From an uncultured bacterium (GTDB taxonomy: Bacteria; Chloroflexota; UBA5177; JANWHV01): DNA of 64,000 nt. Shown piece after piece: positions 520 through 13,360 of the stretch (position 1 is the stretch's first letter; each line of letters starts with the position of its first letter). Under the pieces are notes generated by a model that saw nothing but the letters and a program-made list of their open reading frames with translations, was not told the origin of the DNA and did not search any database. A program made the position numbers and the translations under genes. The stretch is taken from positions 96,001-160,000 of the forward strand of contig CAVSOU010000007.1 in the NCBI GenBank assembly GCA_963729625.1. Reading direction: 5' to 3'.

Positions 520-1494
520 TCAGCCAGAGAACGAAGCTTCATTGTAGTCGGGCTGGGAAGACGCCACGGCGACGGTCACGAACTGATCGCCTTTATGAAA
601 GCTGCCATGATGGCGCAAACCTGCGCCGGCAATTCGCAGCACCGTGCGGTCCGGCGTCCCTGCGGGAATGCGAAGCTTCTTCGGTCCTCGCAGCGTCGGG
701 ACCTCAACAGTACAGCCTGCCTCTGCGTCATGCGGGCTCAAAGGCAAGTTCATCAGAATGTCGATGCCACTGCGCATCAGCACGTCGTCGGGTCGCACAG
801 CTATGCGCAAAAGGAGGTCGCCGCGTGGCCCATTCCGCGGTCCCGAATCGCCTTCGCCCTTCAAGATGAGCTGTTGACCGTCGTCGACAGCAGGAGGGAT
901 CGTCACCGTAAGCGGCGTGTTGCCACGCTTCCTGCCATAGCCAAGGCAGTTGGGACAAGGAGGGTCACCCTTCACGCCGCTTCCCTGGCAGCTCGAGCAT
1001 TCACCTCCGCCGCTTCGCGTTCCGCCGGTGCCGTTACAGACGCCGCATCGAGCGCTGGTTCCTCCTTCGGCGACACCTCGACCCCGGCACGGGGCACATA
1101 CCTCGCGCCTGGGCACATGGACACGTACAGCAGTGCCAAACGCTGCCTCGCGCAAGGACAAAGTAATGGACAGCTCAACATCCGCGCCTCGAAGTACGCC
1201 GCGGCCGACGACAGCCGGTCTGCCCACAAGCGGGCTCCGCACGGGAACGCCGGGCGGGGGCCTGCGAGAAGCGTCGTATGCGCGACGTCGCTCGGGGTCG
1301 CTCAGCACGGCGTATGCCTGCGCCACGGTGACAAAACGCTGGACCGCGTCCTGCGAGGGATTGAAATCAGGATGGAGAATTCGCGCAAGAGAACGGAAAG
1401 CGCTTCGAACCTCTTCAGGGTCGGCGTTCGGTGCCACGCCGAGCACATCGTAGAGGTTGAGGCCGCCCAATGCCGCGTCCACGCTCATAGTCAT
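520..1494 (-). CDS. dnaJ: DnaJ-class chaperone (J domain, zinc finger, C-terminal domain); probable paralog
   Basis: LYDVLGV...LHPDFN J-domain with HPD; four CxxCxGxG repeats (CAPCRGRG, CGVCNGTG, CSSCQGSG, CPNCLGYG); C-terminal GDLLLRI and VEVPTLRG..LRIPAGT. Start moved to ATG 1494 (or 1488). Confidence 0.85.
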   Translation of the reverse strand: MTMSVDAALGGLNLYDVLGVAPNADPEEVRSAFRSLARILHPDFNPSQDAVQRFVTVAQAYAVLSDPERRRAYDASRRPPPGVPVRSPLVGRPAVVGRGVLRGADVELSITLSLREAAFGTAVRVHVPRREVCAPCRGRGVAEGGTSARCGVCNGTGGTRSGGGECSSCQGSGVKGDPPCPNCLGYGRKRGNTPLTVTIPPAVDDGQQLILKGEGDSGPRNGPRGDLLLRIAVRPDDVLMRSGIDILMNLPLSPHDAEAGCTVEVPTLRGPKKLRIPAGTPDRTVLRIAGAGLRHHGSFHKGDQFVTVAVASSQPDYNEASFSG

Positions 1495-1619
1495 CTTCCA
1501 GTGTACCGGCCGAGTGACGATTAGGGCACGGATCGCGTCTTGTCCCGGGAAACCGCCCCGGGTTCGAGAATCAACATTCGGCGAGACGTAGAACACGCGT
1601 CCTACTTACAGCTGCGGAC

Positions 1620-1648
1620 TTGCGTCCCGAGCAAAATGGCGCTATTCT
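1620..1648 (+). promoter_or_regulatory. Putative sigma-70 promoter for the CAP-SH3 gene
   Basis: TTGCGT-17 bp-TATTCT upstream of ATG 1734. Confidence 0.45.
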
Positions 1649-1733
1649 AGCTGCGGGTTGCGAGGCACGCGGAGTGGCTGACTCCGGGCGCGATGCTGAT
1701 TGGCGTGTTCATCGTAGAAGCTGCGGAGGCAAG

Positions 1734-2585
1734 ATGGCGGGAACTGCGGGATGGAAACGTTTCGTTCAGAGCGCACTTCTCGTAGCACCGTTCCTCGCTT
1801 TCACCAGCTCACCTGCGACAGCGTCCGCAGCCATGTCCGGCGCGCGCACGAGGAGCCTGTGTCCTACCACTCCATGGTCCGGGTCTCCATCGGTCCAGGC
1901 CGGACACCCATATCTTTCTTTGGCGTTTGATGCCTTGGCGCGCGATCGGCAGCGGTATGCCGGCCTGGGAGCAATGCGACGGAGCCTCACGCTGAGTGCC
2001 GTCGCGGAAGCCCATTCGGCCTATATGGCGTCGATCGGGGGTTGGTCCGACGGCGACCCCAATGGGTACATCCTGACGAGGGTCCAGGCCGCGGGCATCA
2101 ATGCAACGTACGCCGGCCAGAACGTCGTGACCGTAAACGGCGACACCGTTGCGCATGCCGTGCAGAACGGCGAAGCTTTCTTCGCCCGCGAGGCCGGCAC
2201 GACCGGACCGCACTGGGACAACATGACTAATCCTGATCACCGATACGTCGGCATGGGAATCGCCCTCCTTGGCGAGTCTGGCGACTATACCATCTATCTA
2301 ACTCAGGTCTTCGCGGATGCAGGCGGCTGCGCCCCTGCCTCCGGCTCCGATACGATTGTCCAGGCGGGCTCGGTGAGCGGGCCTCCTCGCATCGGCAGCG
2401 TGGTGCGCACGGGCACGGACTACCTGAGCCTTCGATCTGAGCCGGCAGGTAAGCTCATCCAGACGTTGCGTGCTGACCAAACGCTGAAGGTCGTCGCCGT
2501 CCGGGACGAGTGGGCGCAGGTCGAGGTTCTCGCTATCCATATCTACGGCTGGGTGTATATTCCGCTGCTGGGACCACCGGCGTAG
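1734..2585 (+). CDS. Secreted CAP (SCP) domain protein with C-terminal SH3b-like domain
   Basis: GGAGG RBS then ATG; signal-peptide-like N-terminus; CAP motifs AEAHSAYMA, AGQNV, PHWDNM..VGMGIA, YLTQVF; C-terminal LSLRSEP...EWAQV...GWVY SH3b pattern. Confidence 0.75.
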   Translation: MAGTAGWKRFVQSALLVAPFLAFTSSPATASAAMSGARTRSLCPTTPWSGSPSVQAGHPYLSLAFDALARDRQRYAGLGAMRRSLTLSAVAEAHSAYMASIGGWSDGDPNGYILTRVQAAGINATYAGQNVVTVNGDTVAHAVQNGEAFFAREAGTTGPHWDNMTNPDHRYVGMGIALLGESGDYTIYLTQVFADAGGCAPASGSDTIVQAGSVSGPPRIGSVVRTGTDYLSLRSEPAGKLIQTLRADQTLKVVAVRDEWAQVEVLAIHIYGWVYIPLLGPPA

Positions 2586-2759: not shown

Positions 2760-4100
2760 CTAGGAGTCCAGTATACGCAACGTCAGACCCGTCGCAGGCT
2801 TGGGATAGAAGTACGTCGACTTCTGCGGCATCACCGCGCCCGCCCGTGCAACGTTAAGCAGTTGGCTGACCGGCGTGGCCGCGAGCAGCACGGCGACCTG
2901 TTCCTCGCCGTGAGCAACTGCAAGGCCTGCCCTGCGAATGTCGCGCGTGTAGGTCAGGAACGTCTGCCGCTCCAACTGAATGGACGTAATTCCCAGGCAC
3001 TTCTCCAGGATCAATGATTGGACCAGCCAAGCGTCGAGAGCCGCCAGTTCAGGCGCCGGCGGAGTTCCTGCCAACGCGAGGTCGCGTGGTGTAATAACCA
3101 GAATGCGCCCAGCCTCGACACCCACCAGCGCGAAACGGTTTGCAGGCTCGCCCACACTCGGCGGGGCCAGCAGCGGCTCGACAACCGCCGCCAAGTCGTC
3201 CAGGGCGGGCGGAGCATCAATCCTTGTGATGGTGAAGTAGCGTTCCAGTATCGACGGAAGTTGCTCCAGCTGACTGGGTGTCAACCCATGGATGAGGCGA
3301 TGCGTTGGAAGAATCACCAGCCCAGGGTCATCGACAGCCGTCAACACCATCATCACGAAATCACGCGGCCCGACGTCGCGCGGCCCGGTGCCTAGCAACG
3401 CCTCGTCTCGATAGGCCAGCGCCGTCTCATACCGGTGATGGCCGTCCGCAATGAACAATGGATGTTCCACGAGCGCGCGGCGGATCGCATCGACCGCCGA
3501 ACGCGCGCTTATCGGGGCTACGGCGTGAGTTACGCCCTCGTCATCTTCTGCCAGATCTTCGGTGAGCAGCTCGGCCGAAATTGCCGCTTGCACGGCATGA
3601 TCCACGTGGCGGCCATAGTCTTCGTACAACGCCCAAATAGGGCTGACATTGGCGTTCAGGGCGCGAAGCAGCGCAAGTCGCTCGGCACGTGGCGCGGCGA
3701 GCGTCCGCTCGTGCGGGAGAATGCTGCCGCTGCTCCATGAGGACAGGCGAACATTCGCAAGCAAACTCTTGCGCTCGTAGCTCTGCCCCCCGTAACGGAA
3801 TGACTGGCGGTAGAGGTAAAATGCTGGCTCTGAATCCTTCTGCAGAATGGCCTCATCCTTCCACTGCTGCAAGATGGTGTGAGCTCGTGCATGGCGAACC
3901 GACTCACCGGCGCGACCTTCAGGGTCGCCTGGCTCGGAGGCCGTCAATTCCAGTCGCACGACATTGAACGGGCTTCGCTCATAAAGCGATCGTTGTTGTT
4001 CAGGCGAAATCACGTCGTACGGCGGCGCAATCAGCGTCGCAATGGGCCCCGCACGCTCGGTATCGTAGCGCCAAGCCCGAAATGGTCGGATTTCCGGCAT
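2760..4100 (-). CDS. DUF1015 family protein
   Basis: MPEIRPFRAWRY start; APPYDVIS, ILPHERTL, IADGHHRYETA, LVILPTHR, MPQKSTYFYPKP motifs. Confidence 0.92.
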   Translation of the reverse strand: MPEIRPFRAWRYDTERAGPIATLIAPPYDVISPEQQRSLYERSPFNVVRLELTASEPGDPEGRAGESVRHARAHTILQQWKDEAILQKDSEPAFYLYRQSFRYGGQSYERKSLLANVRLSSWSSGSILPHERTLAAPRAERLALLRALNANVSPIWALYEDYGRHVDHAVQAAISAELLTEDLAEDDEGVTHAVAPISARSAVDAIRRALVEHPLFIADGHHRYETALAYRDEALLGTGPRDVGPRDFVMMVLTAVDDPGLVILPTHRLIHGLTPSQLEQLPSILERYFTITRIDAPPALDDLAAVVEPLLAPPSVGEPANRFALVGVEAGRILVITPRDLALAGTPPAPELAALDAWLVQSLILEKCLGITSIQLERQTFLTYTRDIRRAGLAVAHGEEQVAVLLAATPVSQLLNVARAGAVMPQKSTYFYPKPATGLTLRILDS

Positions 4101-4203
4101 AGTCCCCCCGCGGCCCGAACATCGCATAGATTACATTCAGCCAGTACGGCATTACTGTACCAGTGCGGAGGACGATCTGGCGAGGGAAGCCCCTCGAGCA
4201 TCG

Positions 4204-4587
4204 CTATGAGGCGAGCAGGTCGCTTACAACCTTCACGAAGCTCTGAATATGGAACGGCTTCACGACCAGTGCAGTCAGCGGATCGCCGCTTAAGTCCCGG
4301 CGCGCGCCCAGCTCGAATACCGCGGCCGTACACACGACAATCGGCGTGCTCGTGGAGCCCGGCTCAGATCGCACCGCATCGAGTACCTGCAATCCGTCGC
4401 CGTCCGAAAGCATGACGTCAAGAACGATCAGGCGAAGCGGCTGTGATCGCACTACCCGCAGCGCGCTCTCCACTGAATCCGCAACAATCGTGTTGAACCC
4501 GATGTCGCGCAGTACATCGCCGAGGAGGTCGACGCACCCCTGGTCGTCCTCGACGATCAGGATGTCCAATGGAACCCCATCGCTCAT
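4204..4587 (-). CDS. Single-domain response regulator (receiver only)
   Basis: GGAGG RBS before ATG 4587; ILIVEDD, LIVLDVML (phospho-Asp), VVCTA, VKPF. Confidence 0.85.
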   Translation of the reverse strand: MSDGVPLDILIVEDDQGCVDLLGDVLRDIGFNTIVADSVESALRVVRSQPLRLIVLDVMLSDGDGLQVLDAVRSEPGSTSTPIVVCTAAVFELGARRDLSGDPLTALVVKPFHIQSFVKVVSDLLAS

Positions 4588-4804
4588 GAATCCTCCTGGG
4601 CCTTGTGCATGGCCCTTAGCTAACCTCATCCTAGTGCATGTCGCCGCGGCGCGCATTCCCGGAAGGCGTAAGGCCCGATAGAGTGACTTCCTCGGTGCAT
4701 GCCTTCCTATCGACAGCGCATAGGACGGGCGAAGCACCGGAACACCTAATCATCGCGACGGCTACGATCAAGATTGAAATTGAGCGTAAAGGGGCCATGC
4801 GAAG

Positions 4805-7435
4805 ATGACGGCGGAATACGAACGGCTCAACTCAGGTGGTGATGGCTGGAAGCGCTGGGGACCGTACCTGAGCGAGCGCGCATGGGGCACGGTTCGAGAA
4901 GATTATAGCGCCGACGGTGAAGCGTGGACCTATTTGCCTCACGATGCCGCAAGATCTCGCACGTACCGGTGGAATGAAGACGGTCTTGCCGGGGTCTGTG
5001 ATGACTGTCAGCGTCTATGCCTTGCCATCGCCCTCTGGAACACGCGCGATCCCATCCTCAAGGAGCGCCTGTTCGGACTTGCCGGCCCGGAGGGAAACCA
5101 TGGTGAGGATGTTAAGGAAGTCTATTACTACCTCGACAGCACGCCGACCCACAGTTACATGCGCATGTTGTACCGATACCCGCAGAGCGCATTCCCCTAC
5201 GCAATGCTTGTCGATGAGAATCGCCGCCGGACCCGAGACGATCCCGAGTTCGAGCTGATCGATACCGGCGTATTCGAGGACAACCGCTATTTCGATGTGC
5301 TAGTCGAGTACGCCAAGGCGGCACCGGAAGACGTGCTCCTCCGCATCACAATCGTCAACCAGGGCGCCGAAACAGCGCCGATTGTCGTACTGCCCACGCT
5401 CTGGTTCCGGAATACGTGGTCGTGGCGGGACACGCAGCGACCAGCGTTGCGCGCGGCCGACGAGCGAGGTACCCCGATCATCTGCGTCGATCACCCGGAC
5501 CTCGGCCCGCTGGTCCTCTGGACGGAGGGTAGTGGTGAGCTCATCTTCACAGAGAACGATACTAACCATGCTCGCCTCGACGGCACGCCCAACACCGCGC
5601 CGTTCGTCAAGGACGCGTTTCATGCGTATGTCGTCGACGGGCGGGAGGACGCAGCCAACCCGTCGCGAATCGGAACAAAGGCCGCAGCCGTCTACAAGGA
5701 CACCATCGCACCTGGTGCGTCGATGACCCTGCGGTTGAGACTCTCCCGACGCGACATCGAGCCGTTCTCCGGCTTCGACGATCTCATGGCTCTTCGAAAG
5801 CGGGAAGCCGACGAGTTTTACGCGGACCTGTTGCGCGACGTCCAGGATGCCGAGCTCCGAGGGATCGCCCGCCAAGCATATGGCGGCATGCTGTGGAGCA
5901 AGCAATACTACCACTACGATGTCAAGGTCTGGCTCGACGGCGATCCCGCGCAGCCTTCGCCACCGCCCGAGCGAGCGAACGGAAGGAACCACAAGTGGCT
6001 TCACCTGGCGAATGCCAATGTCTTATCGATGCCCGATACCTGGGAGTACCCATGGTATGCCGCTTGGGACCTCGCCTTCAATTGCGTCGCGCTGGCGCGA
6101 ATCGATCCGGACTTTGCCAAGGCGCAGGTAGAGCTACTTACGCGCGAGTGGTTTCAGCATCCGAATGGTCAGCTACCTGCGTATGAGTGGTCATTCGACG
6201 ACGTAAATCCGCCAGTCCTCGCCTGGGCAGCACTCCGCGTCTATGATATCGAGCGGCAGCTTCGCGGTAGCGCGGACCACGCATTCCTCAAGCGCGTGTT
6301 CCACAAACTGCTGTTGGATTTCACGTGGTGGGTCAACCGTGAAGATTCCGAAGGCAACAACATCTTCCAGGGCGGCTTCCTCGGACTTGACAATATCGGC
6401 GTCTTTGACCGAAGCAAGCCGCTGCCGACCGGCGGTTTCATTGAGCAGAGCGACGGAACGAGCTGGATGGGGATGTACTGCTTGAACATGCTGTCGATTT
6501 GTCTCGCGCTTGCTCGCGAAGATTCCACGTACGAGGATATCGCCGGCAAGTTCTTCGATCACTTCCTGTTCATTGCTGGCGCGATGCACAACATCGGTGG
6601 ACGGGGCATTCAATTATGGGACGAAGACGATGGGTTCTACTACGACATGCTGCATCTTCCAGACGGCAGCCATATCCCCCTGAAAGTGAGGTCGTGTGTT
6701 GGCCTTATTCCCCTCTTTGCCGTCGTACTGATCGATCCTCCTACGCTTGCCGCCCTGCCCCGATTCGCCGAGCGTATCCAGTGGTTTCTTTCGCTCCGGC
6801 CTGAGCTCGCGGCATTGATATCCCGATGGCAAGTGCCGGGAGAAGGCGACCTACGCCAATTGGCGCTCGTGCGCGGGCATCGCCTGAAATGTCTGCTCAA
6901 GTATGCGCTGGACCCGGAAGAGTTTCTGAGCGACCACGGCGTGCGAAGCTTGAGCAGATTCCATCTGCAACACCCATTCAGCGTGCCTGTCGAAGGATCG
7001 ACGTACACAGTCGCCTACGAGCCGGCGGAGTCGCGCAGCGGGACGTTTGGCGGCAACTCGAACTGGCGCGGCCCCGTGTGGTTTCCCATCAATTACTTGC
7101 TCATCGACGCGTTGCGTCGATTTCATGGCTACTATGGCGACGAGTTTCTCGTGGAATGCCCGACCGGCTCTGGTAAGAACATGACGCTGCTACAGGTCGC
7201 CGACTTCCTCGCGGACCGAGTGATCGCGCTCTTTCGACGAGATAGTACGGGAAACCGTCCTTTCAACGGGAGCAGACTCCTCCTGCAGCAAGACGAGCGC
7301 TGGCGCGATCTCCTGCTTTTTCACGAGTACTTTCATGCTGAGACCGGTCAGGGCCTGGGCGCCAGCCACCAGACGGGCTGGACCGGCCTGGTTGCCAACA
7401 TCATTCTGTCTATGGCCTCGGGCTCATGGCTCTAA
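4805..7435 (+). CDS. MGH1/GH63-like glycoside hydrolase (glucosidase)
   Basis: 876 aa; WKRWGPYLSERAWGTVREDYS, EGNHGEDVKE, SMPDTWEYPWYAAWDLAF, GGFLGLDNIG, GGNSNWRGPVW, GLGASHQTGWT. Confidence 0.9.
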   Translation: MTAEYERLNSGGDGWKRWGPYLSERAWGTVREDYSADGEAWTYLPHDAARSRTYRWNEDGLAGVCDDCQRLCLAIALWNTRDPILKERLFGLAGPEGNHGEDVKEVYYYLDSTPTHSYMRMLYRYPQSAFPYAMLVDENRRRTRDDPEFELIDTGVFEDNRYFDVLVEYAKAAPEDVLLRITIVNQGAETAPIVVLPTLWFRNTWSWRDTQRPALRAADERGTPIICVDHPDLGPLVLWTEGSGELIFTENDTNHARLDGTPNTAPFVKDAFHAYVVDGREDAANPSRIGTKAAAVYKDTIAPGASMTLRLRLSRRDIEPFSGFDDLMALRKREADEFYADLLRDVQDAELRGIARQAYGGMLWSKQYYHYDVKVWLDGDPAQPSPPPERANGRNHKWLHLANANVLSMPDTWEYPWYAAWDLAFNCVALARIDPDFAKAQVELLTREWFQHPNGQLPAYEWSFDDVNPPVLAWAALRVYDIERQLRGSADHAFLKRVFHKLLLDFTWWVNREDSEGNNIFQGGFLGLDNIGVFDRSKPLPTGGFIEQSDGTSWMGMYCLNMLSICLALAREDSTYEDIAGKFFDHFLFIAGAMHNIGGRGIQLWDEDDGFYYDMLHLPDGSHIPLKVRSCVGLIPLFAVVLIDPPTLAALPRFAERIQWFLSLRPELAALISRWQVPGEGDLRQLALVRGHRLKCLLKYALDPEEFLSDHGVRSLSRFHLQHPFSVPVEGSTYTVAYEPAESRSGTFGGNSNWRGPVWFPINYLLIDALRRFHGYYGDEFLVECPTGSGKNMTLLQVADFLADRVIALFRRDSTGNRPFNGSRLLLQQDERWRDLLLFHEYFHAETGQGLGASHQTGWTGLVANIILSMASGSWL

Positions 7436-7659
7436 ATGCATCCCGATGCTGCCTGTGGGGCTAGTGGGGACCGACGTGCGCTTGCTGTCGGGGCTGTGTC
7501 AAGCCTCTTGTGGCCACTTCGTACCAGGACGCGAGCATGGCGGACTGGATCGCGATCCAGCACCTTGCCTGTCGCAAGCCAGTCCGGGCCGTCAACTGCG
7601 TGCAGGCTGTCCGTCGATGGCCGGGTTTGCGTGCTCGCCTGCGATGCGCGATACATTGA

Positions 7660-8970
7660 ATGAGCACCCACGGCCGAAGGGGTAGCGCTCCGCGCCGCGC
7701 AGAACACGCCGGCCGCGCGCCACAGGAGAGATCGGAATCGCCCTTGCTGACGCAGCATCTCTTGCTTGAGCTTGCCGTCATTCTGGTCGTGGTGCAGGTC
7801 TGCGGCTATTTGTGCGGACTGATCGGGCAGCCATGGGTGATCGGCGAGGTGATCGCGGGCATTGTTCTCGGCCCGAGCGTGTTCGGAGCCCTGTGTTCCA
7901 GCCTCAGCGCACAGGTGTTTCCTCGTGATGTTTTGCCAACGTTGCAATCGCTAGGCGACCTGGGTCTGGTGCTCTACATGTTCACGGTCGGCGTGAGTTT
8001 GGATAGAGATCATCTCCTTCGTCAGAGCCGGCGAGCAGCCGTGCTATCCGCGTGCAGTATCGGGATGCCGATGGCCGTTGGCGCGACGCTAGCCTTCGTG
8101 CTCTACGCGCGGGCTGGTTACGCAGGCCCACATGCCACCAACCGGGGAACCTTCATGCTGCTGGTGGGTACGGCAATGGCGATAACCGCCTTCCCGGTCC
8201 TGACGCGCATCCTGGTCGATAGAGGGATGACGGGCTCCAGGATCGGCATGCTGGCGCTGACATGCGCCGCTGCCGGAGACGTTCTGGCCTGGTGTCTGCT
8301 GGCGTTGGTCGTCGCACTGGCGAACTCCGTGGGCGTCCCCACGGCAGGCATGCAAGTCCTGGAAACGCTCGTCTTCCTTGGAGTACTGGTTGTCGCCGTT
8401 CGCCCCTTGGGGGCATGGGCAGTACAGCAATTGTCCTCCCCGCGTCTGCAGCTGGTGCTGATCGTCACCTTGCTCTGGCTGGCGGCGGAGACCACCTCGG
8501 TTATCGGGATACACCCGGTCTTCGGCGCCTTCCTGATGGGCGTGGTGACGCCACGGTCGACGGCGATAACCGAATTCGCCCGGAACATCGACTCCGTCAA
8601 CTCGGTCATCTTCCTGCCCTTGTTCTTCATCTTCAGTGGGTTGCAGACAAGTATCGGGCTGATCGATTCACCGGAGTTGTGGATAGTCTGCTTGACGGTA
8701 CTCTGTGCAGCGGTGGCGGGCAAATTGCTGTGCTGTGCTCTGGCTATGCGCGCAACCGGCGCGAATTGGCGAGACTCTATGACGCTTGGCGTGCTGATGA
8801 ACACACGCGGCCTGGTCGAGCTGATCGTGCTGAACATCGGCTTGGCCGACGGCATTATCTCGCCGCGTTTCTTCAGCATGTTGGTGATCATGGCTCTGGG
8901 CACGACCATGATGACGTCGCCACTCTTGGATCTCCTTGGACACAGGGCCGTGAGCGAGCGGGCAGCGTGA
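7660..8970 (+). CDS. Cation:proton antiporter (CPA2 / Kef-type Na+/H+ exchanger)
   Basis: About 12 hydrophobic segments; GQPWVIGEVIAGIVLGPS, AITAFPVLTRIL, FGAFLMG, LMNTRGLVELIVLNIG. True start may be downstream (~7744). Confidence 0.88.
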   Translation: MSTHGRRGSAPRRAEHAGRAPQERSESPLLTQHLLLELAVILVVVQVCGYLCGLIGQPWVIGEVIAGIVLGPSVFGALCSSLSAQVFPRDVLPTLQSLGDLGLVLYMFTVGVSLDRDHLLRQSRRAAVLSACSIGMPMAVGATLAFVLYARAGYAGPHATNRGTFMLLVGTAMAITAFPVLTRILVDRGMTGSRIGMLALTCAAAGDVLAWCLLALVVALANSVGVPTAGMQVLETLVFLGVLVVAVRPLGAWAVQQLSSPRLQLVLIVTLLWLAAETTSVIGIHPVFGAFLMGVVTPRSTAITEFARNIDSVNSVIFLPLFFIFSGLQTSIGLIDSPELWIVCLTVLCAAVAGKLLCCALAMRATGANWRDSMTLGVLMNTRGLVELIVLNIGLADGIISPRFFSMLVIMALGTTMMTSPLLDLLGHRAVSERAA

Positions 8971-9207
8971 TGGTCACCCGCACCCGCGAAGGGATCGCCG
9001 GCGATGGCTCGAGCGCTGCAAGCTCGATACCTCGCGGTAGTCACTTCCTTTCTGCGCTCGCGGGCGTTGGTCGGGCCGTGGCGAAGCGACCAGTCGCTCG
9101 CGACAAGCCAACTCGGGACACCGCCTCTGGGATCGCCCGAATTCGTGCGACCTCGATGCTTGCCCGCGACACGTGCCAACGCAGAGCAGGCTGCATGGGA
9201 CGCGTGG

Positions 9208-9300
9208 TCGGAGCGTCAACGATTTACTACGGCGGGCGTTACACCAAACGGCCAAGAATGGTTCTGTAACCTCGTCCGTAGTGAACTCTGTTGCCGCCGA
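9208..9300. repeat. Long imperfect inverted repeat containing two outward-facing TGTAAC boxes
   Basis: caacgatttactacggcgggcgttaca (9217-9243) pairs with tgtaacctcgtccgtagtgaactctgttg (9265-9293); flanks extend the pairing to about 9208-9300. Confidence 0.7.
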
Positions 9301-9353
9301 TGTGACTTCGCCGGCAGGAAGGTAACAGTTAGCAATTGAGGAGGTTCGCCTGC

Positions 9354-10169
9354 ATGTCTCGAATACTTGGCTTGATTACCACCGTGGCAACTCTGGGCGC
9401 TCTCGCGATCAGCGTCGCGGCCTACCAGGGAGCCCTGGCTGCCACGCCGTCGGCCACCGCGCACGCTGCTGCTAGCGTTGCCATACAGGGCTTCGCCTTT
9501 GACCCGGTGACGTTGAAAGTGCCAGTGGGCACGACGGTAACCTGGACCAACAAGGATAGCGTCGCGCACACGGTCGTCAGCGACACCGGAGCTTGGCCAG
9601 ATTCAAGTCCGATCGACACCAACAAGACATTCTCGTTCACGTTTACCAAGCCAGGGACGTACAACTATCACTGCTCCATCCATCCATCTATGACGGCTGC
9701 GATCGTCGTGAGCGCGTCCGGCGTCGCGCCAACGGGCACCGGCCAGCAGCCGTCCGCCACGATGATGGCGATGGGCAAGGCAACCATGAGGTCGCTCAAT
9801 ACGTGGACAGGCTATTATGATGGAAAGGCCTCAACCTACGTCGTGACCGACACGTCGAGCAAGGCGGAAGCCGCTCAAGACCACATCAACTACTCGGCCA
9901 GCCTCGGCAAGACGCTCGCGGACAGCAGCCTGATCTATTTCGCCACGAACGGGACCTTCGCCGGCTATGGCGCTGTGTTCGGCACGGCCCCGGGGGAAAG
10001 CGACTACACGCCGATCTTTCAGAAGGTTTTGGTCACCTGGAAGGATCCCGCTAAAGCCGCAGCCCTGACCTCTGACAATCAGATCAACAGCCTAGCGTCC
10101 AAAGGACTGGTCTCACTGAACAGGACCGGCATCGTGCTCGACGCGCCGTACGTGTTCCCGGCGCACTGA
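9354..10169 (+). CDS. Secreted cupredoxin (amicyanin/plastocyanin-like) fused to a C-terminal domain of unknown function (DUF7482-like)
   Basis: GAGGAGG RBS; signal peptide; FAFDPVTLKVPVGTTVTWTNKDSVAHTV and YHCSIHPSM type-1 Cu ligands (H, C-x2-H-x2-M); C-terminal GYYDG...PGESDYTPIF..VTW. Confidence 0.85.
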   Translation: MSRILGLITTVATLGALAISVAAYQGALAATPSATAHAAASVAIQGFAFDPVTLKVPVGTTVTWTNKDSVAHTVVSDTGAWPDSSPIDTNKTFSFTFTKPGTYNYHCSIHPSMTAAIVVSASGVAPTGTGQQPSATMMAMGKATMRSLNTWTGYYDGKASTYVVTDTSSKAEAAQDHINYSASLGKTLADSSLIYFATNGTFAGYGAVFGTAPGESDYTPIFQKVLVTWKDPAKAAALTSDNQINSLASKGLVSLNRTGIVLDAPYVFPAH

Positions 10170-10323
10170 GCGAGCATCTGCGGTCGTCCTTGAGGGGCGC
10201 CGACGCCGGCGCCCTTCGCAGGCCGTCACATGCCGGCAGCACCACGGGACGGCCGGTTACTCCGGCCCACTGGGTGTACGGGATACGTCGACGAATTCTG
10301 GCACGACACTTTCGGAGGGGTCC

Positions 10324-10860
10324 ATGGGGTGGGAGGCGCCGGAACAGCAGCGCGTATCGCTGGATGGCGATGCCTTATACCGCGCGAACGTTCGGCCAGT
10401 CTATGGGTTCGTATACAGTAAGGTCGGAAACCGCGAGGCCGCGGAGGACCTCACGAGCGAGGTATTCGTGCGTGCTCTGGCCCACGTCGATCCGGACCGA
10501 GATGAACGCAGCGTCGTCGCCTGGCTGTTCCGGGTGGCACGAAACCTGGTCAATGACTATTGGCGAGCAGGGTACTCTGCACACGTCATCGATATCGACC
10601 AGATGCGCAATCTGCGAAGCCCGACCGTGTCTCCGGACATGGGCCGACAGGCTCAGGCTGCGCGGCGAGCTACCAGACTGCTGGAGATGCTGCCTGACAA
10701 CTATCGAGCAGTATTGCAATATCGACTGCTCGAGGGTCTCAGCGTCGCGGAGACCGCCGAGAAGATGGCAACGTCCCCTGCCAACGTCAAAGTGCTGCAA
10801 CACCGCGCGCTGAAGCGGGCTGCTGAGCTTCGAGAGAGCGATGATTCCAATGGAAGATGA
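10324..10860 (+). CDS. ECF RNA polymerase sigma factor
   Basis: GGAGG RBS; region 2 VYGFVYSKVGNREAAEDLTSEVF...AWLFRVARN; region 4 LPDNYRAVLQYRLLEGLSVAETAEKM...NVKVLQHRAL. Confidence 0.93.
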   Translation: MGWEAPEQQRVSLDGDALYRANVRPVYGFVYSKVGNREAAEDLTSEVFVRALAHVDPDRDERSVVAWLFRVARNLVNDYWRAGYSAHVIDIDQMRNLRSPTVSPDMGRQAQAARRATRLLEMLPDNYRAVLQYRLLEGLSVAETAEKMATSPANVKVLQHRALKRAAELRESDDSNGR

Positions 10861-11611
10861 AGTGGACCGGCTGTCAAGCGTCATCGACGATTTGGTGGCT
10901 GAGCACGATCCCTCCGCTCGCAAAGAACTCTCTGTGCAAGAGGCGGAGCTCGCCGCAACTGCGGCCATGCTGCGCGCGGCGGTCGAGAATCGGCTTGAGC
11001 CGACCGAGGAGTTTGTCGATTCGCTGGCGCGGCGGTTAGCGTCCGGCGAGGAGAACGCGCTCGCGCGGGGGGAATCTCGTGGGCGGACCGGCATCTCCCG
11101 GAGGTCGGCGCTCCGGCGCGTGGCAGCAGCCGTGGCCGGCCTTGCCGCGGGCGGCGTCGGCATTGGCGCCCTCTATGAGAAGGGGAAATCCGACGGTGGC
11201 CACGAGGAAGTAGCTAGCGCGCTCACGGCCCCGATGGTGCCGCAGGACCGCGGAACCTGGCAGACTGTCGGTTACACGATCTCGAGTGTTCCTGCCGGAT
11301 CCGCGGTGCGGTTCAGAGCGGGCGCTCTGGAAGGATTTGTGGTCAACCCAGGTCAAGGCGGGCCGCCCTATGCCCTATCGGCGGTGTGCACGCATATGGG
11401 TTGTATGCTCAGTTGGTTGAAAGATGCGGGCACGTTCCTCTGTCCATGCCATGGCGCGCAGTACGATGGCAATGGGGCGGTACTCTCCGGCATCGCTCGC
11501 CACCCCTTGCCGCGACTGCAGATCAACGTAGATGACGGTGGCGAAATATACGTCTGGACCGTGGGGGAGCTCCCCGCGAACACTACGATCGCCCCATATA
11601 GCCACGCGTAA
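10850..11611 (+). CDS. Membrane-anchored Rieske [2Fe-2S] protein with N-terminal cytoplasmic domain; putative anti-sigma factor
   Basis: Overlaps the ECF stop; ~80 aa acidic helical N-terminus, internal SRRSAL twin-arginine motif plus hydrophobic helix, Rieske boxes CTHMGC and CPCHG. Confidence 0.85.
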   Translation: MEDEVDRLSSVIDDLVAEHDPSARKELSVQEAELAATAAMLRAAVENRLEPTEEFVDSLARRLASGEENALARGESRGRTGISRRSALRRVAAAVAGLAAGGVGIGALYEKGKSDGGHEEVASALTAPMVPQDRGTWQTVGYTISSVPAGSAVRFRAGALEGFVVNPGQGGPPYALSAVCTHMGCMLSWLKDAGTFLCPCHGAQYDGNGAVLSGIARHPLPRLQINVDDGGEIYVWTVGELPANTTIAPYSHA

Positions 11612-11800
11612 TCGCCGCGATCTGCAGGATGGGACGGCCCGGTCCACCGGCCGGCCGGCCGGATCCGCCTCATCGTGCTATTGAGCGGGACCCGCTGGGC
11701 GACGACAATAGTGTCTCGGCGCCGATTGCCGGCGACCACCGCCGCGCTGGAGCAGTCGATGCGCGGTATTCTCCGCCTGGCCATGGCAAGGGGGATGTAG

Positions 11801-13360
11801 ATGCCCAGACGCATGGCTGCCATCACGTTCGTCCTGCTCGCACTCTCAGCCGTGCCATTCAACCAACACGCGATTCCAACGGCCGATGCGGGCGCTGCAA
11901 CGGTGCTCCCGGACGCTCCGAACTGCCCTGTCTTTCCGGAGAACAACGTCTGGAACGCAGACATCTCCCGACTGCCTGTCGCCGCGAACTCCGCGGCAAT
12001 GATCCAGTCCATCGGCCCCGCCACCGGATTGCACCCCGACTTCGGCTCCTACCTGGGCTACGGCATCCCATACAACGTTGTGAGCGAAAACCAGGTCAAG
12101 GTGCCGGTGACCTTCGACTACGCGAGCGAATCGGATCCCGGACCATACCCGATTCCCGCTGATCCAAAGGTCGAAGGGGGCGGCGACCGCCACATCCTGA
12201 TCGTCGACAAGGACCGTTGCGTGCTCTATGAACTGTACGACGCACGACAGAATGGCGGCGCGTGGTCGGCGGGGTCCGGGGCCATCTGGAAGCTGCGATC
12301 GAACGCCCTTAGGCCCGATAGCTGGACAAGCGCCGACGCGGCTGGATTGCCTATCCTGCCGGGACTCGTCCGCTACGACGAGATCGCCGCCGGGTCAATC
12401 AACCACGCGCTCCGCTTCACGGCTGCCCACACCGCCAAGATGCACATCTACCCGGCACGGCACGACGCCGGAGTAAACAGCCCAGGCTATCCGCCGATGG
12501 GCCTGCGCGTGCGGCTCAAAGCATCGGTGGACATCGGCCACTTCAGTCCACGCGTGCAGGTGTTGCTCAGCGCGCTGAAGAAGTACGGCATGATCCTGGC
12601 CGACAACGGATCGAACTGGTACATCTCCGGCACATCCGACCCCCGCTTTAACGACGACGAGTTCCACACCCTCAACCAGATCACCGGCGCCGACTTCGAG
12701 GTTGTGGACACCAGCGGCCTGATCAACGGACCTGACAAGGGCGGGGCCCCGCAGCCCAGCGCGGGCGCAACCGCCGCCGAGCCCACGCCGACAACGACCC
12801 ACCAGCCCTCGGTCGAGCGTGCAACGGCAGCAGTGCAGCACGTCGTCGTTCTGACACCGGTCGCCGATGCCTCGGTGCGAGACGGCGCGTATGCCACCAC
12901 GCACTACGGCGCGGCAGGATCCTTGCTCGCCGTGTGGTCGCCCGCGGCAGGATATCAGCGCCACATCTACGCGCGCTTCAGCCTCCAGAGCGTCGCTGGC
13001 GCCGTCAACACGGCAACTCTGCGCCTGTACGGACAACACCTGGCAATCGGCCCCGGTGCCGACAAGGTGAGCCTGTTCCCGGCAGCCCCCACCGCGTGGA
13101 CGGATGCGGGACCGAGCGGCATCACCTGGGCCACGCGGCCGGGAGCGGGAACGACCCCGCTGTCCACCGCCCAGATTGGCGAAAGGCTCCAGTACTACAC
13201 GTGGAACACGGGCGCGTACGTGACCGCGCAAGGTGCACGCGCGTCACAGGTCAGCTTCATGCTCGCCGTGCAGCCACCGCGCAGCTCGAATGGCATAGAC
13301 GTCTTCAACTCCCGAGAGGACGGCACGAATCCGCCGCAGTTGGTCTTGGTCCTGCAGTAG
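11801..13360 (+). CDS. Secreted conserved hypothetical protein with C-terminal CBM96/DNRLRE-like domain
   Basis: Signal peptide; CPVFPENNVWN, ESDPGPYPIP, GDRHIL, WTSADAAGLPILPGLVRYDE, LKKYGMILADNGS; Pro/Thr linker; PVADASVRDG...ATLRLY...ITWATRP...FNSRE...PQLVL tail. Confidence 0.75.
   Translation: MPRRMAAITFVLLALSAVPFNQHAIPTADAGAATVLPDAPNCPVFPENNVWNADISRLPVAANSAAMIQSIGPATGLHPDFGSYLGYGIPYNVVSENQVKVPVTFDYASESDPGPYPIPADPKVEGGGDRHILIVDKDRCVLYELYDARQNGGAWSAGSGAIWKLRSNALRPDSWTSADAAGLPILPGLVRYDEIAAGSINHALRFTAAHTAKMHIYPARHDAGVNSPGYPPMGLRVRLKASVDIGHFSPRVQVLLSALKKYGMILADNGSNWYISGTSDPRFNDDEFHTLNQITGADFEVVDTSGLINGPDKGGAPQPSAGATAAEPTPTTTHQPSVERATAAVQHVVVLTPVADASVRDGAYATTHYGAAGSLLAVWSPAAGYQRHIYARFSLQSVAGAVNTATLRLYGQHLAIGPGADKVSLFPAAPTAWTDAGPSGITWATRPGAGTTPLSTAQIGERLQYYTWNTGAYVTAQGARASQVSFMLAVQPPRSSNGIDVFNSREDGTNPPQLVLVLQ

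What the first reader, a model, noticed from the sequence alone, without database searches (positions are those of the whole stretch)
9208..11611. Cupredoxin / ECF sigma / Rieske anti-sigma module: candidate extracytoplasmic redox- or copper-sensing switch
Seen: three co-oriented genes - a secreted type-1 blue-copper protein, an ECF sigma factor, and a gene overlapping the sigma stop that encodes a cytoplasmic domain, a membrane helix and a Rieske [2Fe-2S] domain. No cytochrome b or dioxygenase subunit lies in the window. Known: ECF sigmas are usually held by an anti-sigma encoded immediately downstream, and Rieske proteins transfer electrons toward cupredoxins in some chains (cytochrome b6f to plastocyanin via cytochrome f; arsenite oxidase AioB to azurin). 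Inference: the Rieske cluster senses redox state outside the membrane, controls sigma release, and the cupredoxin is a regulon member and/or the electron partner. I recall Rieske-domain anti-sigma groups appearing in computational ECF classifications for Actinobacteria, so novelty must be checked; I know of no experimental characterisation.
Basis: partly seen in the sequence, partly recalled or inferred. Interest (0 to 1): 0.8.

Follow-up and report, generated by a model that had tools for sequence, protein, structure and literature searches.

The report
Rieske anti-sigma switch controlling cupredoxin
A Chloroflexota-like bacterium encodes a stress-type (ECF) sigma factor next to a membrane protein with an exported iron-sulfur (Rieske) domain that probably holds it in check, and the pair appears to switch on a blue-copper protein; the pairing is catalogued by bioinformatics (group ECF127) but has never been tested.

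Summary
The three genes are real. They are a secreted type-1 cupredoxin fused to DUF7482 (9354-10169), an ECF sigma (10324-10860) and a 256-aa protein (10841-11611). That protein has a three-helix cytoplasmic head, an invariant twin-arginine signal-anchor and a bc1/b6f-type Rieske domain.

- **Pair conservation.** In 68 of 69 related loci whose Rieske protein has the N-terminal head, a homologous sigma lies directly upstream. Among Rieske loci without the head this holds in 1 of 22.
- **Sigma clade.** Rieske-linked sigmas form one clade (100/99 support) that includes two Actinomycetota pairs.
- **Family match.** The features fit group ECF127 of the published ECF classification: Rieske at +1, a Tat signal and a GTAACCC motif. 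No experiments on that group are reported.
- **Head domain.** It is profile-homologous (hhalign 95%) to the heads of non-Rieske membrane proteins downstream of BldN-family sigmas.
- **Promoter motif.** The family motif GTAACC-N5/6-CGTA lies 88 nt upstream of the cupredoxin ATG here. It also precedes unlinked cupredoxin orthologues in two same-genus genomes, so the cupredoxin is a target.
- **Three-gene order.** It is not conserved: cupredoxin lies near 14 of 77 pairs.

Binding and redox sensing remain inferred, because the complex predictor was unavailable. Verdict: a new, non-actinobacterial member of a known but untested kind, with a newly defined cupredoxin regulon.

The parts
9265..9280 (+). 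Family promoter motif TGTAACC-TCGTC-CGTA, 88 nt upstream of the cupredoxin ATG. It is the presumed autoregulated ECF-dependent promoter of the three-gene operon.
   Evidence: The same motif is found upstream of 46 of 65 related sigma genes and on the reverse strand in 1 of 65. It is the only invariant block in the alignment with the upstream regions of the G003 and G004 cupredoxin orthologues. The strict motif occurs 10 times in the 5.4-Mb genome on both strands.
9338..9344 (+). Shine-Dalgarno GAGGAGG, 9 nt before ATG 9354.
   Evidence: Read from the sequence.
9354..10169 (+). Secreted type-1 (amicyanin-like) cupredoxin fused to a C-terminal DUF7482 domain (271 aa). It is the first gene of the operon and a target of the sigma.
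   Evidence: Pfam Cupredoxin_1, Copper-bind and DUF7482. The NCBIfam amicyanin hit is sub-threshold. Orthologues in G003 and G004 are 55-58% identical over the full length.
10324..10860 (+). ECF sigma factor (178 aa), a member of the Rieske-linked (ECF127-like) clade.
   Evidence: Pfam r2 and r4_2. The best PDB hit is BldN, 6dxo_A, at 6.8e-17. The clade has 100/99 support. It is the only member of this family among about 10 ECF-like ORFs in the genome.
10841..11611 (+). Candidate anti-sigma factor (256 aa): cytoplasmic three-helix head, Tat signal-anchor and extracytoplasmic Rieske [2Fe-2S] domain. The start may be Met4 (10850).
10841..11074 (+). N-terminal head, residues 1-78, with predicted helices 4-19, 32-46 and 56-75. 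This is the putative sigma-binding (class III-like) anti-sigma domain. A41 and F58 are invariant; L18 and P54 are nearly so.
   Evidence: AF2 models, alignments and hhalign against the heads of proteins downstream of BldN-family sigmas (95% probability, E 3.9e-8).
11096..11173 (+). Twin-arginine motif S86-R87-R88-S-A-L plus the Ala/Gly-rich hydrophobic segment 94-111. This is the Tat signal-anchor, giving N-in, C-out topology.
   Evidence: R87 and R88 are invariant in 32 and in 36 sequences. The pattern [ST]RRxx-hydrophobic occurs in 67 of 68 unique homologues. TatC is present in the genome.
11255..11560 (+). Rieske [2Fe-2S] domain, residues 139-240. Box I is C183-T-H185-M-G-C188 (11387-11404) and box II is C201-P-C203-H204 (11441-11452), including the two disulfide cysteines typical of bc1/b6f-type Rieske proteins.
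   Evidence: Pfam. Both boxes are present in 68 of 68 unique homologues. Model pLDDT exceeds 90. Foldseek hits are 8hn2_A, AioB, 9rk4 and PetC3.

Best explanation
This is an autoregulated ECF sigma / anti-sigma switch of the ECF127 type.

Proposed mechanism:
1. The 256-aa protein is inserted N-in, C-out by the Tat pathway through its uncleaved twin-arginine signal-anchor.
2. Its cytoplasmic three-helix head sequesters the sigma factor at the membrane.
3. Its exported, cofactor-loaded Rieske [2Fe-2S] domain is the sensor.
4. A change in the state of the cluster (oxidation state, or loss or damage of the cluster) inactivates or destabilises the anti-sigma and frees the sigma.
5. The freed sigma transcribes from the GTAACC-N5/6-CGTA promoter at 9265-9280. 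That raises the secreted cupredoxin-DUF7482 protein together with the sigma and anti-sigma themselves.

In relatives the same promoter motif drives other cupredoxins and Lipoprotein_15 (PF03640) proteins.

Shown here:
- the gene anatomy;
- cross-phylum conservation of the pair;
- monophyly of the Rieske-linked sigmas;
- homology of the head to the heads of other sigma-adjacent membrane proteins;
- the promoter motif and its presence before linked and unlinked cupredoxin genes.

Inferred:
- physical binding of the head to the sigma;
- Tat dependence;
- the nature of the signal.
For: Anatomy.

Coupling of the pair:
- 68 of 69 loci whose Rieske protein has the head carry a homologous sigma directly upstream on the same strand. 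The exception, L059, is cut by the contig end.
- Among Rieske loci without the head the figure is 1 of 22. That call examined 91 loci, and L007 and L018 are the same contig.
- The genes overlap in 40 of 67 pairs, by 4 nt in 33 of them.

Cluster ligands and disulfide cysteines are present in 68 of 68 unique homologues, and the twin-arginine pattern in 67 of 68.

All 40 Rieske-linked sigmas, including 2 from Actinomycetota, form one clade with 100/99 support. That clade is separate from 4 of the 5 BldN-like sigmas and from 9 other ECFs of this genome. The fifth BldN-like sigma, L107, sits on a long branch as a weakly supported sister of the clade (63/17).

The head profile finds, in 201 Actinomycetota genomes, 2 full sigma-Rieske pairs. 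It also finds 5 non-Rieske membrane proteins, each directly downstream of an A2-like ECF sigma whose best family, where scanned (L106, L107, L108), is BldN. The profile-profile match is 95% probability, E 3.9e-8.

The sigma's best solved relative is BldN in the RsbN complex. [quoted passage not shown]

Promoter:
- GTAACC occurs in 49 of 66 sigma-upstream regions and on the reverse strand in 2 of 66.
- The bipartite motif occurs in 46 of 65, with fixed spacing.
- In the window it sits before the cupredoxin gene.
- It also precedes the unlinked cupredoxin-DUF7482 orthologues of G003 and G004 and the downstream cupredoxin genes in L034, L036, L050, L061 and L069.
- In G012 it occurs 5 times, on both strands, in the stretch that holds the sigma-Rieske pair, two cupredoxin genes and a Lipoprotein_15 gene. 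One copy is upstream of the sigma, one is upstream of a cupredoxin and one is just upstream of the Lipoprotein_15 ORF.
- Of 7 cupredoxin-domain ORFs and 1 Lipoprotein_15 ORF in this genome, only the window's cupredoxin carries it.

The published description of ECF127 matches (supplement passages).
Against: - No direct evidence of binding exists. The complex prediction could not be run.
- The head has no detectable sequence match to any solved chain, RsbN (6dxo) included. The best E was 0.35.
- The isolated-head model is of low confidence (pLDDT 67.8, pTM 0.36) and found no fold match.
- The strict motif is not enriched genome-wide: 10 hits, against 1-8 hits for each of the other spacer lengths tested. 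No wider regulon could therefore be defined.
- The second motif block lies only 5-7 nt after GTAACC, which does not fit a normal -35/-10 geometry. The motif could in principle be an operator of another regulator.
- Cupredoxin adjacency is found near only 14 of 77 pairs.
- Nothing tested here bears on what the Rieske cluster senses.
Confidence: 0.68

Rival explanations
1. The Rieske protein is not an anti-sigma factor. It is simply a co-transcribed regulon member: a Tat-exported membrane electron carrier that passes electrons to or from the cupredoxin. Its N-terminal head would serve biogenesis (for example chaperone binding or holding before Tat export), and the sigma would be controlled by something else.
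For: - The head has no sequence match to solved anti-sigma domains or to curated families. Only one sub-threshold NCBIfam 'antisigma' hit was seen: 23.6 bits against a cut-off of 100.
- The Rieske boxes are of the electron-transfer (bc1/b6f, AioB) type.
- Cupredoxins recur next to the pair.
Against: - The head is present exactly where a sigma is adjacent (68 of 69) and is absent from Rieske proteins without a sigma (1 of 22 has a sigma).
- Translational coupling is frequent.
- The same head occurs on non-Rieske membrane proteins that are also directly downstream of related sigmas. That is the pattern expected of a sigma-binding module.
- No other candidate anti-sigma gene lies in the operon.
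Confidence: 0.12
2. It is an anti-sigma factor, but the input is cofactor supply or integrity rather than reversible redox state. When Fe-S assembly fails (iron limitation), or when the exposed cluster is destroyed (by copper or oxidants), the apo-protein is rejected by Tat proofreading or is degraded. The sigma is then released and copper-based electron carriers (cupredoxins) are induced, giving an iron-to-copper switch.
For: - The twin-arginine anchor is invariant, so export requires a folded, cofactor-loaded domain. That requirement is established knowledge of the Tat pathway, not tested here.
- The targets are copper proteins.
- The full set of cluster ligands is conserved.
Against: No result here distinguishes this from redox sensing. 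No iron- or copper-responsive regulator site or transporter was found in the operon. Lipoprotein_15 targets have no known link to metals, and the literature search found nothing relevant.
Confidence: 0.3
3. The conserved GTAACC-N5/6-CGTA element is not the sigma's promoter. It would instead be the operator of a different regulator or an RNA element, so cupredoxin co-regulation would not depend on this sigma.
For: - The spacing of the two blocks (6-7 nt between GTAACC and GTA) is about 10 bp shorter than a normal ECF -35/-10 pair.
- In the Actinomycetota loci, start codons lie only 24-40 nt after GTAACC.
Against: - The element tracks the sigma family across phyla. It occurs upstream of the sigma's own operon in 46-49 of 65-66 loci, strand-specifically.
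- GTAAC-type -35 elements are common among ECFs (recalled, not from a call).
- The published ECF127 -35 prediction is GTAACCC.
- No other regulator gene is conserved in the loci.
Confidence: 0.1

Closest known systems
ECF group ECF127 (Huang et al. 2015 is recalled from the citation inside the supplement; Casas-Pastor et al. 2021, PMC7826278, supplementary group descriptions were read; the review PMC8999054 was read as passages)
   Same: - An ECF sigma with a Rieske [2Fe-2S] protein encoded at +1, sometimes with a Tat signal.
- The +1 protein resembles the anti-sigma factors of ECF121.
- The predicted -35 is GTAACCC and the -10 is not conserved.
- No experimental data exist.
- Two Actinomycetota sigma-Rieske pairs nest inside the same sigma clade as the window's gene.
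   Different: - ECF127 is described as 100% Actinobacteria. The nearest relatives of this window are titled Chloroflexota, and the family also occurs in Dormibacterota, Ktedonobacteria and single MAGs labelled Solibacter, Eisenbacteria and Proteobacteria.
- The published text calls the Rieske proteins soluble. Here a twin-arginine signal-anchor is invariant.
- The published conserved context is an acyltransferase and a calcineurin-like phosphoesterase. Here the recurrent neighbours and motif-bearing targets are cupredoxins and Lipoprotein_15 proteins.
- The ECF Hub HMM for ECF127 could not be run.
RsbN / sigma-BldN of Streptomyces venezuelae (class III anti-sigma domain; PDB 6DXO; PMC6101532)
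   Same: - The sigma's best solved relative is BldN.
- Both anti-sigmas have an N-terminal cytoplasmic head of about 85-91 aa made of three helices with flexible, proline-containing linkers, followed by one membrane segment and an extracytoplasmic domain.
- The head is profile-homologous to the heads of proteins downstream of BldN-family sigmas.
   Different: - There is no detectable sequence similarity to RsbN itself.
- The external domain is a cofactor-bearing Rieske domain exported by Tat, not the 272-aa RsbN domain.
- The sigma lacks BldN's N-terminal pro-extension (178 aa).
- The regulon is cupredoxin, not chaplins and rodlins.
Rieske subunits of cytochrome bc1/b6f complexes and arsenite oxidase AioB
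   Same: - The CTHxGC and CPCH boxes with disulfide cysteines.
- The Tat signal-anchor.
- The fold.
- AioB and b6f pass electrons towards cupredoxins or cytochromes (established knowledge, not tested here).
   Different: - No cytochrome b or AioA partner is adjacent. The genome's cytochrome b sits with another Rieske gene on contig C8.
- An extra 85-aa cytoplasmic head precedes the RR motif.
- The gene is coupled to a sigma factor.
Iron-sulfur or redox-sensing anti-sigma factors such as RshA/RsrA (ZAS family)
   Same: A cofactor- or thiol-based sensor controls an ECF sigma. RshA binding a [2Fe-2S] cluster is mentioned in the supplement passage.
   Different: Those are soluble cytoplasmic ZAS proteins with an HxxxCxxC motif. 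Here the cluster is a Rieske type on the outer face of the membrane, and the sigma-binding head has no Cys or His motif.

Membership tests
ECF127 sigma/Rieske system | Sigma factor with sigma2 and sigma4 domains only (ECF type) | tested here: met
   Pfam Sigma70_r2 and Sigma70_r4_2, 178 aa.
ECF127 sigma/Rieske system | Rieske [2Fe-2S] protein encoded at +1 | tested here: met
   PF00355 in the overlapping downstream gene. The pair is conserved in 68 of 69 loci.
ECF127 sigma/Rieske system | Tat signal on the +1 protein (reported for part of the group) | tested here: met
   R87 and R88 are invariant. The pattern occurs in 67 of 68 homologues. TatC is in the genome.
ECF127 sigma/Rieske system | Predicted target promoter with a GTAACCC-type -35 | tested here: met
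   TGTAACCT at 9265-9272 heads the operon. GTAACC occurs in 49 of 66 sigma-upstream regions. The geometry relative to the second block is unusual.
ECF127 sigma/Rieske system | Sigma groups phylogenetically with actinobacterial Rieske-linked sigmas | tested here: met
   One clade of 40 sigmas with 100/99 support, including L104 and L105 from Actinomycetota.
ECF127 sigma/Rieske system | Scores above threshold with the ECF Hub ECF127 group HMM | not testable with these tools
   No ECF-group HMM library is available. The best NCBIfam hit is the BldN family, sub-threshold at 103 bits against a cut-off of 206.
ECF127 sigma/Rieske system | Taxonomic range: Actinobacteria (100% in the published group) | tested here: not met
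   The nearest relatives carry Chloroflexota titles. This is a descriptive property of the published set rather than a functional criterion.
Class III anti-sigma domain (RsbN type) | N-terminal cytoplasmic head of about 90 aa made of three helices with flexible linkers | tested here: met
   AF2 predicts helices 4-19, 32-46/48 and 56-68/75. RsbN is described in PMC6101532.
Class III anti-sigma domain (RsbN type) | Sequence or profile similarity to RsbN | tested here: not met
   The head profile against all PDB chains gave a best E of 0.35 and no 6dxo chain. It is, however, homologous to the heads of proteins downstream of BldN-family sigmas (hhalign 95%).
Class III anti-sigma domain (RsbN type) | Binds sigma2 and sigma4 of the cognate sigma | not testable with these tools
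   Complex prediction was full or unavailable.
bc1/b6f-type Rieske subunit | CxH...CxxH ligands with the two extra disulfide cysteines | tested here: met
   CTHMGC and CPCHG. Both boxes occur in 68 of 68 homologues.
bc1/b6f-type Rieske subunit | Encoded with, and working in, a cytochrome b complex | tested here: not met
   Cytochrome b occurs only on C8 (next to another Rieske gene) and C10. None lies in the window.
Type-1 (blue) copper protein | Cupredoxin fold with His, Cys, His and Met ligands and a secretion signal | tested here: met
   Pfam Copper-bind and Cupredoxin_1. VAHTV and C-x2-H-x2-M are read from the translation. Copper binding itself was not tested.

The most novel reading that the evidence does not exclude
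The Rieske domain is a true extracytoplasmic cofactor sensor. This would be the first anti-sigma factor whose sensor is a Tat-exported iron-sulfur cluster. It would couple the redox state or integrity of that cluster to the expression of blue-copper electron carriers, giving an iron-versus-copper or electron-flux feedback.

In addition, the family would use a non-canonical compact promoter (GTAACC, then 6-7 nt, then GTA). That would imply an unusual mode of promoter recognition by an ECF sigma.
Probability: 0.3. Interest if true: 0.8.

Novelty: new member of a known kind. Interest (0 to 1): 0.5.

Why it matters
ECF127-type systems are catalogued but have never been studied at the bench.

This window and its relatives show three things:
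- The system is not confined to Actinobacteria.
- The Rieske partner is a Tat-anchored membrane protein rather than a soluble one.
- The system's conserved outputs are secreted cupredoxins and Lipoprotein_15 proteins, behind a sharply defined promoter motif.

That turns a vague annotation ('Rieske Fe-S protein' or 'cytochrome b6-f subunit' in databases) into a testable hypothesis. An exported iron-sulfur cluster would act as the sensor of a transcriptional switch for copper-dependent electron carriers.

The pair also exists in cultured, harmless strains where it can be tested: Dictyobacter vulcani W12 (L068) and Thermogemmatispora tikiterensis T81 (L081), by the record titles.

Tried and rejected
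- **Complex prediction (sigma alignment A2 plus residues 1-86 of A3).** Searches were not sent on. One search declared the tool unavailable. No fold was made, so there is no verdict on binding.
- **Head profile against PDB sequences and NCBIfam.** Nothing significant was found.
- **NCBIfam NF052375 'antisigma' on the whole protein.** E 4.4e-5, 23.6 bits against a cut-off of 100. This is too weak to use.
- **phmmer of two BldN-adjacent proteins against PDB, and of their head alignment A5.** No RsbN hit.
- **Model of the isolated head (pLDDT 67.8) against PDB by Foldseek.** No match with E at or below 0.001. The model's confidence is low, so this says little.
- **Genome-wide scan for GTAACC-N5/6-CGTA.** It gave 10 hits, not enriched over other spacer lengths. 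Only the window site lies a suitable distance before a gene, so no wider regulon is claimed.
- **RNA evidence.** No RNA holder was listed.
- **ESM Atlas on the DUF7482 part.** No usable hit.
- **Literature on PF03640, COG4315 or Lipoprotein_15.** Nothing relevant.
- **Literature searches for prior description.** The searches were 'Rieske + anti-sigma + ECF' (6 papers, none on topic by title or abstract), 'Rieske / anti-sigma factor / Chloroflexi', 'ECF127' (1 review), 'anti-sigma + twin-arginine + Rieske' (1 unrelated review) and 'ECF sigma factor + cupredoxin + anti-sigma' (0 papers). The only description found is the ECF127 paragraph in the Casas-Pastor supplement. The held copy of that supplement is cut, but it reaches ECF295 and holds 'Rieske' once.
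- **Idea rejected: the Rieske gene is the bc-complex subunit.** The cytochrome b gene is elsewhere.
- **Idea rejected: a fixed three-gene module.** Same-genus genomes lack it.


Full report
**Observation.**
The region holds three co-oriented genes.

The first ORF is listed from TTG 9336, but ATG 9354 follows a GAGGAGG box by 9 nt and is the likely start. The protein has a hydrophobic N-terminal signal. It carries a cupredoxin domain (Pfam Cupredoxin_1 1.2e-10, Copper-bind 2.2e-10) with the ligand pattern His plus C-x2-H-x2-M, read from the translation.

The second gene (10324-10860) is an ECF sigma with Sigma70_r2 and r4_2.

The third gene (10841-11611) overlaps the sigma gene by 20 nt. It encodes 256 aa with Rieske PF00355 at residues 147-223 and the boxes CTHMGC and CPCHG. 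NCBIfam places the Rieske part nearest b6f PetC, actinobacterial QcrA and AioB, all below threshold.

The genome's cytochrome b genes are on contigs C8 and C10. The C8 copy lies directly after another Rieske gene. No ring-hydroxylating dioxygenase alpha subunit was found in this 87%-complete genome.

**The Rieske protein has the anatomy of a membrane anti-sigma factor.**
Two alignments were made, one of 32 homologues and one of 36. Three features are conserved:
- a head of about 80 aa, with A41 and F58 invariant and L18 and P54 nearly so;
- an invariant twin arginine (R87, R88) in an (S/T)RRxxL context, followed by an Ala/Gly-rich hydrophobic stretch;
- invariant cluster ligands together with the two disulfide cysteines.

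Among 68 unique homologues, 68 have both boxes and 67 have the [ST]RRxx-hydrophobic pattern. TatC is encoded in the genome.

AlphaFold2 on the 36-sequence alignment gives a mean pLDDT of 77.9. The model has three helices (4-19, 32-46, 56-75), a low-confidence membrane and linker region, and a Rieske domain with pLDDT above 90. The Rieske domain's nearest solved folds are the Chlorobaculum Rieske fragment 8hn2, AioB, the Kuenenia Rieske proteins and Synechocystis PetC3.

Tat signal peptides insert N-in. The head therefore stays in the cytoplasm and the folded, cofactor-loaded Rieske domain is exported. This step is inferred from established Tat biology and was not tested.

**The sigma/Rieske pair is conserved; the three-gene module is not.**
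I examined 91 loci from relatives and from one genome per species.
- 69 have a Rieske protein whose match starts within the first 30 residues of the query. Of these, 68 have a homologue of the window's sigma directly upstream on the same strand.
- The exception, L059, begins at the contig end.
- Of the 22 loci that match only the Rieske part (mostly Poribacteria and Acidimicrobiaceae), 1 has such a sigma. L007 and L018 are the same contig.
- With heuristic start codons, the two genes overlap in 40 of 67 pairs, by 4 nt in 33.

By record title the carriers are Chloroflexota (including Ktedonobacteria, with the cultured Dictyobacter vulcani and Thermogemmatispora tikiterensis), Dormibacterota, and single MAGs labelled Solibacter, Eisenbacteria, Proteobacteria and Actinomycetes.

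Same-genus genomes G001, G003 and G004 keep sigma plus Rieske only. Neither the cupredoxin gene nor the CBM96 gene lies within about 5 kb.

**Relation to known groups.**
The supplement of Casas-Pastor et al. 2021 describes ECF127 as follows (passages read):
- Actinobacteria only;
- 'soluble' Rieske proteins at +1, some with Tat signals;
- similarity to the anti-sigma factors of ECF121 (BldN/RsbN);
- a predicted -35 of GTAACCC and a non-conserved -10;
- 'might be regulated by' the Rieske protein.

A 2022 review lists ECF127 under unknown mechanism for lack of experimental data (passages). In the held, cut copy of the supplement, which reaches ECF295, 'Rieske' occurs once.

The window's sigma has BldN in the RsbN complex as its best solved relative (6dxo_A, 6.8e-17). 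Its best curated family is the BldN family, sub-threshold.

A profile of the head alone (A4, 76 positions) was searched against 201 Actinomycetota genomes.
- 16 of the 201 genomes had a match at E of 0.01 or better.
- Two were strong (E about 1e-16). Both are full sigma-Rieske pairs.
- Ten loci of weaker matches were fetched (L106-L115), from 17 weaker matches in all. In five of them (L106, L107, L108, L110, L113) the match lies in a 366-535-aa non-Rieske protein directly downstream of an A2-like ECF sigma. I scanned the sigmas of L106, L107 and L108 against NCBIfam. All three have the BldN family as best hit: 188.5, 105 and 179.8 bits against a cut-off of 206.

The heads of these proteins align with the Rieske-protein heads at 95% probability (hhalign E 3.9e-8, 62 columns). 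A shared head on different external domains, always beside a related sigma, is what a sigma-binding module looks like.

RsbN itself is a 91-residue, three-helix cytoplasmic head with flexible linkers, then one TM helix and an external domain. Helix 3 lies between sigma2 and sigma4 (PMC6101532: abstract, passages and one section). However, no sequence similarity to the solved RsbN chain was detectable.

In a maximum-likelihood tree of 54 sigmas, all 40 Rieske-linked ones form one clade with 100/99 support on a long branch. These are 38 from Chloroflexota, Dormibacterota and others, plus the 2 from Actinomycetota. Four BldN-like sigmas and 9 other ECFs of this genome fall outside. L107 sits on a long branch as a weak sister.

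I therefore file the window under the ECF127 kind, as a non-actinobacterial member. The group HMM itself could not be run.

**Promoter and regulon.**
The hexamer GTAACC occurs in 49 of 66 unique regions upstream of the sigma genes. It occurs in 2 of 66 on the opposite strand. The fuller motif, GTAACC followed by 6 or 7 nt and then GTA, occurs in 46 of 65 regions and on the opposite strand in 1 of 65. The spacing is 7 nt in 39 cases and 6 nt in 7.

The window's sigma has no such site directly upstream. Instead TGTAACCTCGTCCGTA lies at 9265-9280, 88 nt before the cupredoxin ATG. The strict motif occurs only 10 times in the whole genome on both strands. A chance hit in that 300-nt stretch therefore has a probability of about 3e-4 (my arithmetic). 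The three genes thus look like one autoregulated operon. No terminator-like or sigma-70-like site was found in 8900-12000.

The decisive point is that the full-length orthologues of the cupredoxin-DUF7482 gene in G003 and G004 (58% and 55% identity) lie on other contigs than the sigma-Rieske pair, yet carry the same motif about 85-100 nt upstream. In an alignment of the three upstream regions, CTGTAACC and CGTA are the main invariant blocks apart from the ribosome-binding site.

Elsewhere:
- Cupredoxin genes directly downstream of the Rieske gene have their own motif copy in L034, L036, L050, L061 and L069.
- In G012 the motif occurs five times, on both strands, in the stretch that holds the sigma-Rieske pair, a single-domain cupredoxin, a two-domain cupredoxin and a five-repeat Lipoprotein_15 protein. 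One copy is upstream of the sigma, one is upstream of the single-domain cupredoxin and one is just upstream of the Lipoprotein_15 ORF.

As a control, this genome has 7 cupredoxin-domain ORFs and 1 Lipoprotein_15 ORF, and only the window's cupredoxin carries the motif.

Across 77 distinct pair loci:
- 14 have a cupredoxin within -2.2 to +1.5 kb. These include both Actinomycetota pairs and a second, paralogous pair present in all four same-genus genomes.
- 17 have a Lipoprotein_15 protein; one locus has both.
- 47 have neither, and 16 of those have short flanks.

These loci are related to each other, so the counts are not independent events.

**How it most likely works.**
- Shown: the anatomy, the conserved coupling, the head homology, the monophyly, and the motif before linked and unlinked cupredoxin genes.
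- Inferred: the head binds and sequesters the sigma at the membrane; the Rieske domain is exported by Tat; and a change in the cluster (redox state, or loss or damage) relieves inhibition, which raises the cupredoxin and the pair itself.

I put about 0.68 on the anti-sigma and cupredoxin-regulon architecture. The input signal is open. Nothing here separates them.

The main rival is that the Rieske protein is merely a co-transcribed electron carrier. The strict head-sigma correlation and the head's occurrence on non-Rieske partners of related sigmas make this unlikely, at about 0.12.

**Unexplained.**
The second conserved block lies only 6-7 nt after GTAACC, about 10 bp closer than a normal ECF -10. 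In the two Actinomycetota loci, ribosome-binding sites and start codons lie only 24-40 nt after GTAACC. One of three things must hold: the starts are mis-set, CGTA is a spacer element with a weak real -10, or this family uses a compact promoter. TSS mapping is needed.

**What could not be done.**
The complex predictor was full and then withdrawn, so binding is untested. No RNA run holds the stretch. The ECF Hub HMMs are not available. bioRxiv supplements were not consulted.

Earlier notes of this scan on other genomes reached similar readings: ECF127, a Rieske anti-sigma and copper or redox envelope targets. These are unchecked AI notes and I do not count them as evidence.

**Verdict.**
This is a new, non-actinobacterial member of a known but experimentally untouched kind. 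What is added here is a sharper picture: a Tat-anchored sensor, cupredoxin and Lipoprotein_15 targets, and an odd promoter geometry.

Noticed in passing
window 9265-9280; loci L009-L095, L104, L105: The family promoter motif has an unusual geometry. GTAACC is followed after only 6-7 nt by GTA (39 cases with 7 nt, 7 cases with 6 nt). In the Actinomycetota loci, start codons lie 24-40 nt after GTAACC, which does not fit a -35/N16-17/-10 layout.
   Followed up: partly
L101 (G012:C208:6000-17000), about 3100-7600: The motif occurs five times, on both strands. The stretch holds a 152-aa unknown protein, a five-repeat Lipoprotein_15 protein, a two-domain cupredoxin, the sigma-Rieske pair and a single-domain cupredoxin. 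It may be a compact regulon island.
   Followed up: partly
L119 (G001), L120 (G002), L121 (G004), L122 (G003): All four same-genus genomes carry a second, paralogous sigma-Rieske pair (about 35% identity) with a cupredoxin 380-450 nt downstream. No such second pair was found in the window's own genome, which is 87% complete.
   Followed up: partly
L011, L025-L051 and others (Dormibacterota clade); L049, L058, L068 (Ktedonobacteria): A secreted Lipoprotein_15 (PF03640, function unknown) gene recurs near the pair, directly downstream of the Rieske gene in the Dormibacterota clade. It was found at 17 of 77 pair loci.
   Followed up: partly
window 9819-10154: The cupredoxin carries a C-terminal DUF7482 domain. 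Only positions 1-111 of the 257-position profile are matched. The fusion is kept in the G003 and G004 orthologues. The ESM Atlas gave no usable hit.
   Followed up: partly
L098 (G001:C18), 5713-6482: The sigma orthologue of G001 is split over two overlapping reading frames. This may be a frameshift or an assembly error. The Rieske gene downstream of it is intact.
   Followed up: no
L109 (G079:C70), 916-2277, minus strand: One open frame of 454 aa matches both the sigma profile (in two pieces) and the head profile. It could be a natural sigma/anti-sigma-head fusion or a read-through artefact in an Actinomycetota genome.
   Followed up: no
window 11801-13360: The gene downstream of the operon encodes a 519-aa protein with a C-terminal CBM96/DNRLRE domain. 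It is not conserved next to the pair in same-genus genomes.
   Followed up: partly
window 4805-7435 and 7660-8970: The upstream genes are an 876-aa MGH1-like/GH63-type glycoside hydrolase and a Na+/H+ exchanger family protein. Neither is linked to the pair in relatives.
   Followed up: no
proteins P0003-P0120: Public sources name members of this family 'Rieske Fe-S protein', 'cytochrome b6-f complex iron-sulfur subunit', 'nitrite reductase/ring-hydroxylating ferredoxin subunit' or 'cbcV'. None of these names reflects the sigma coupling.
   Followed up: no
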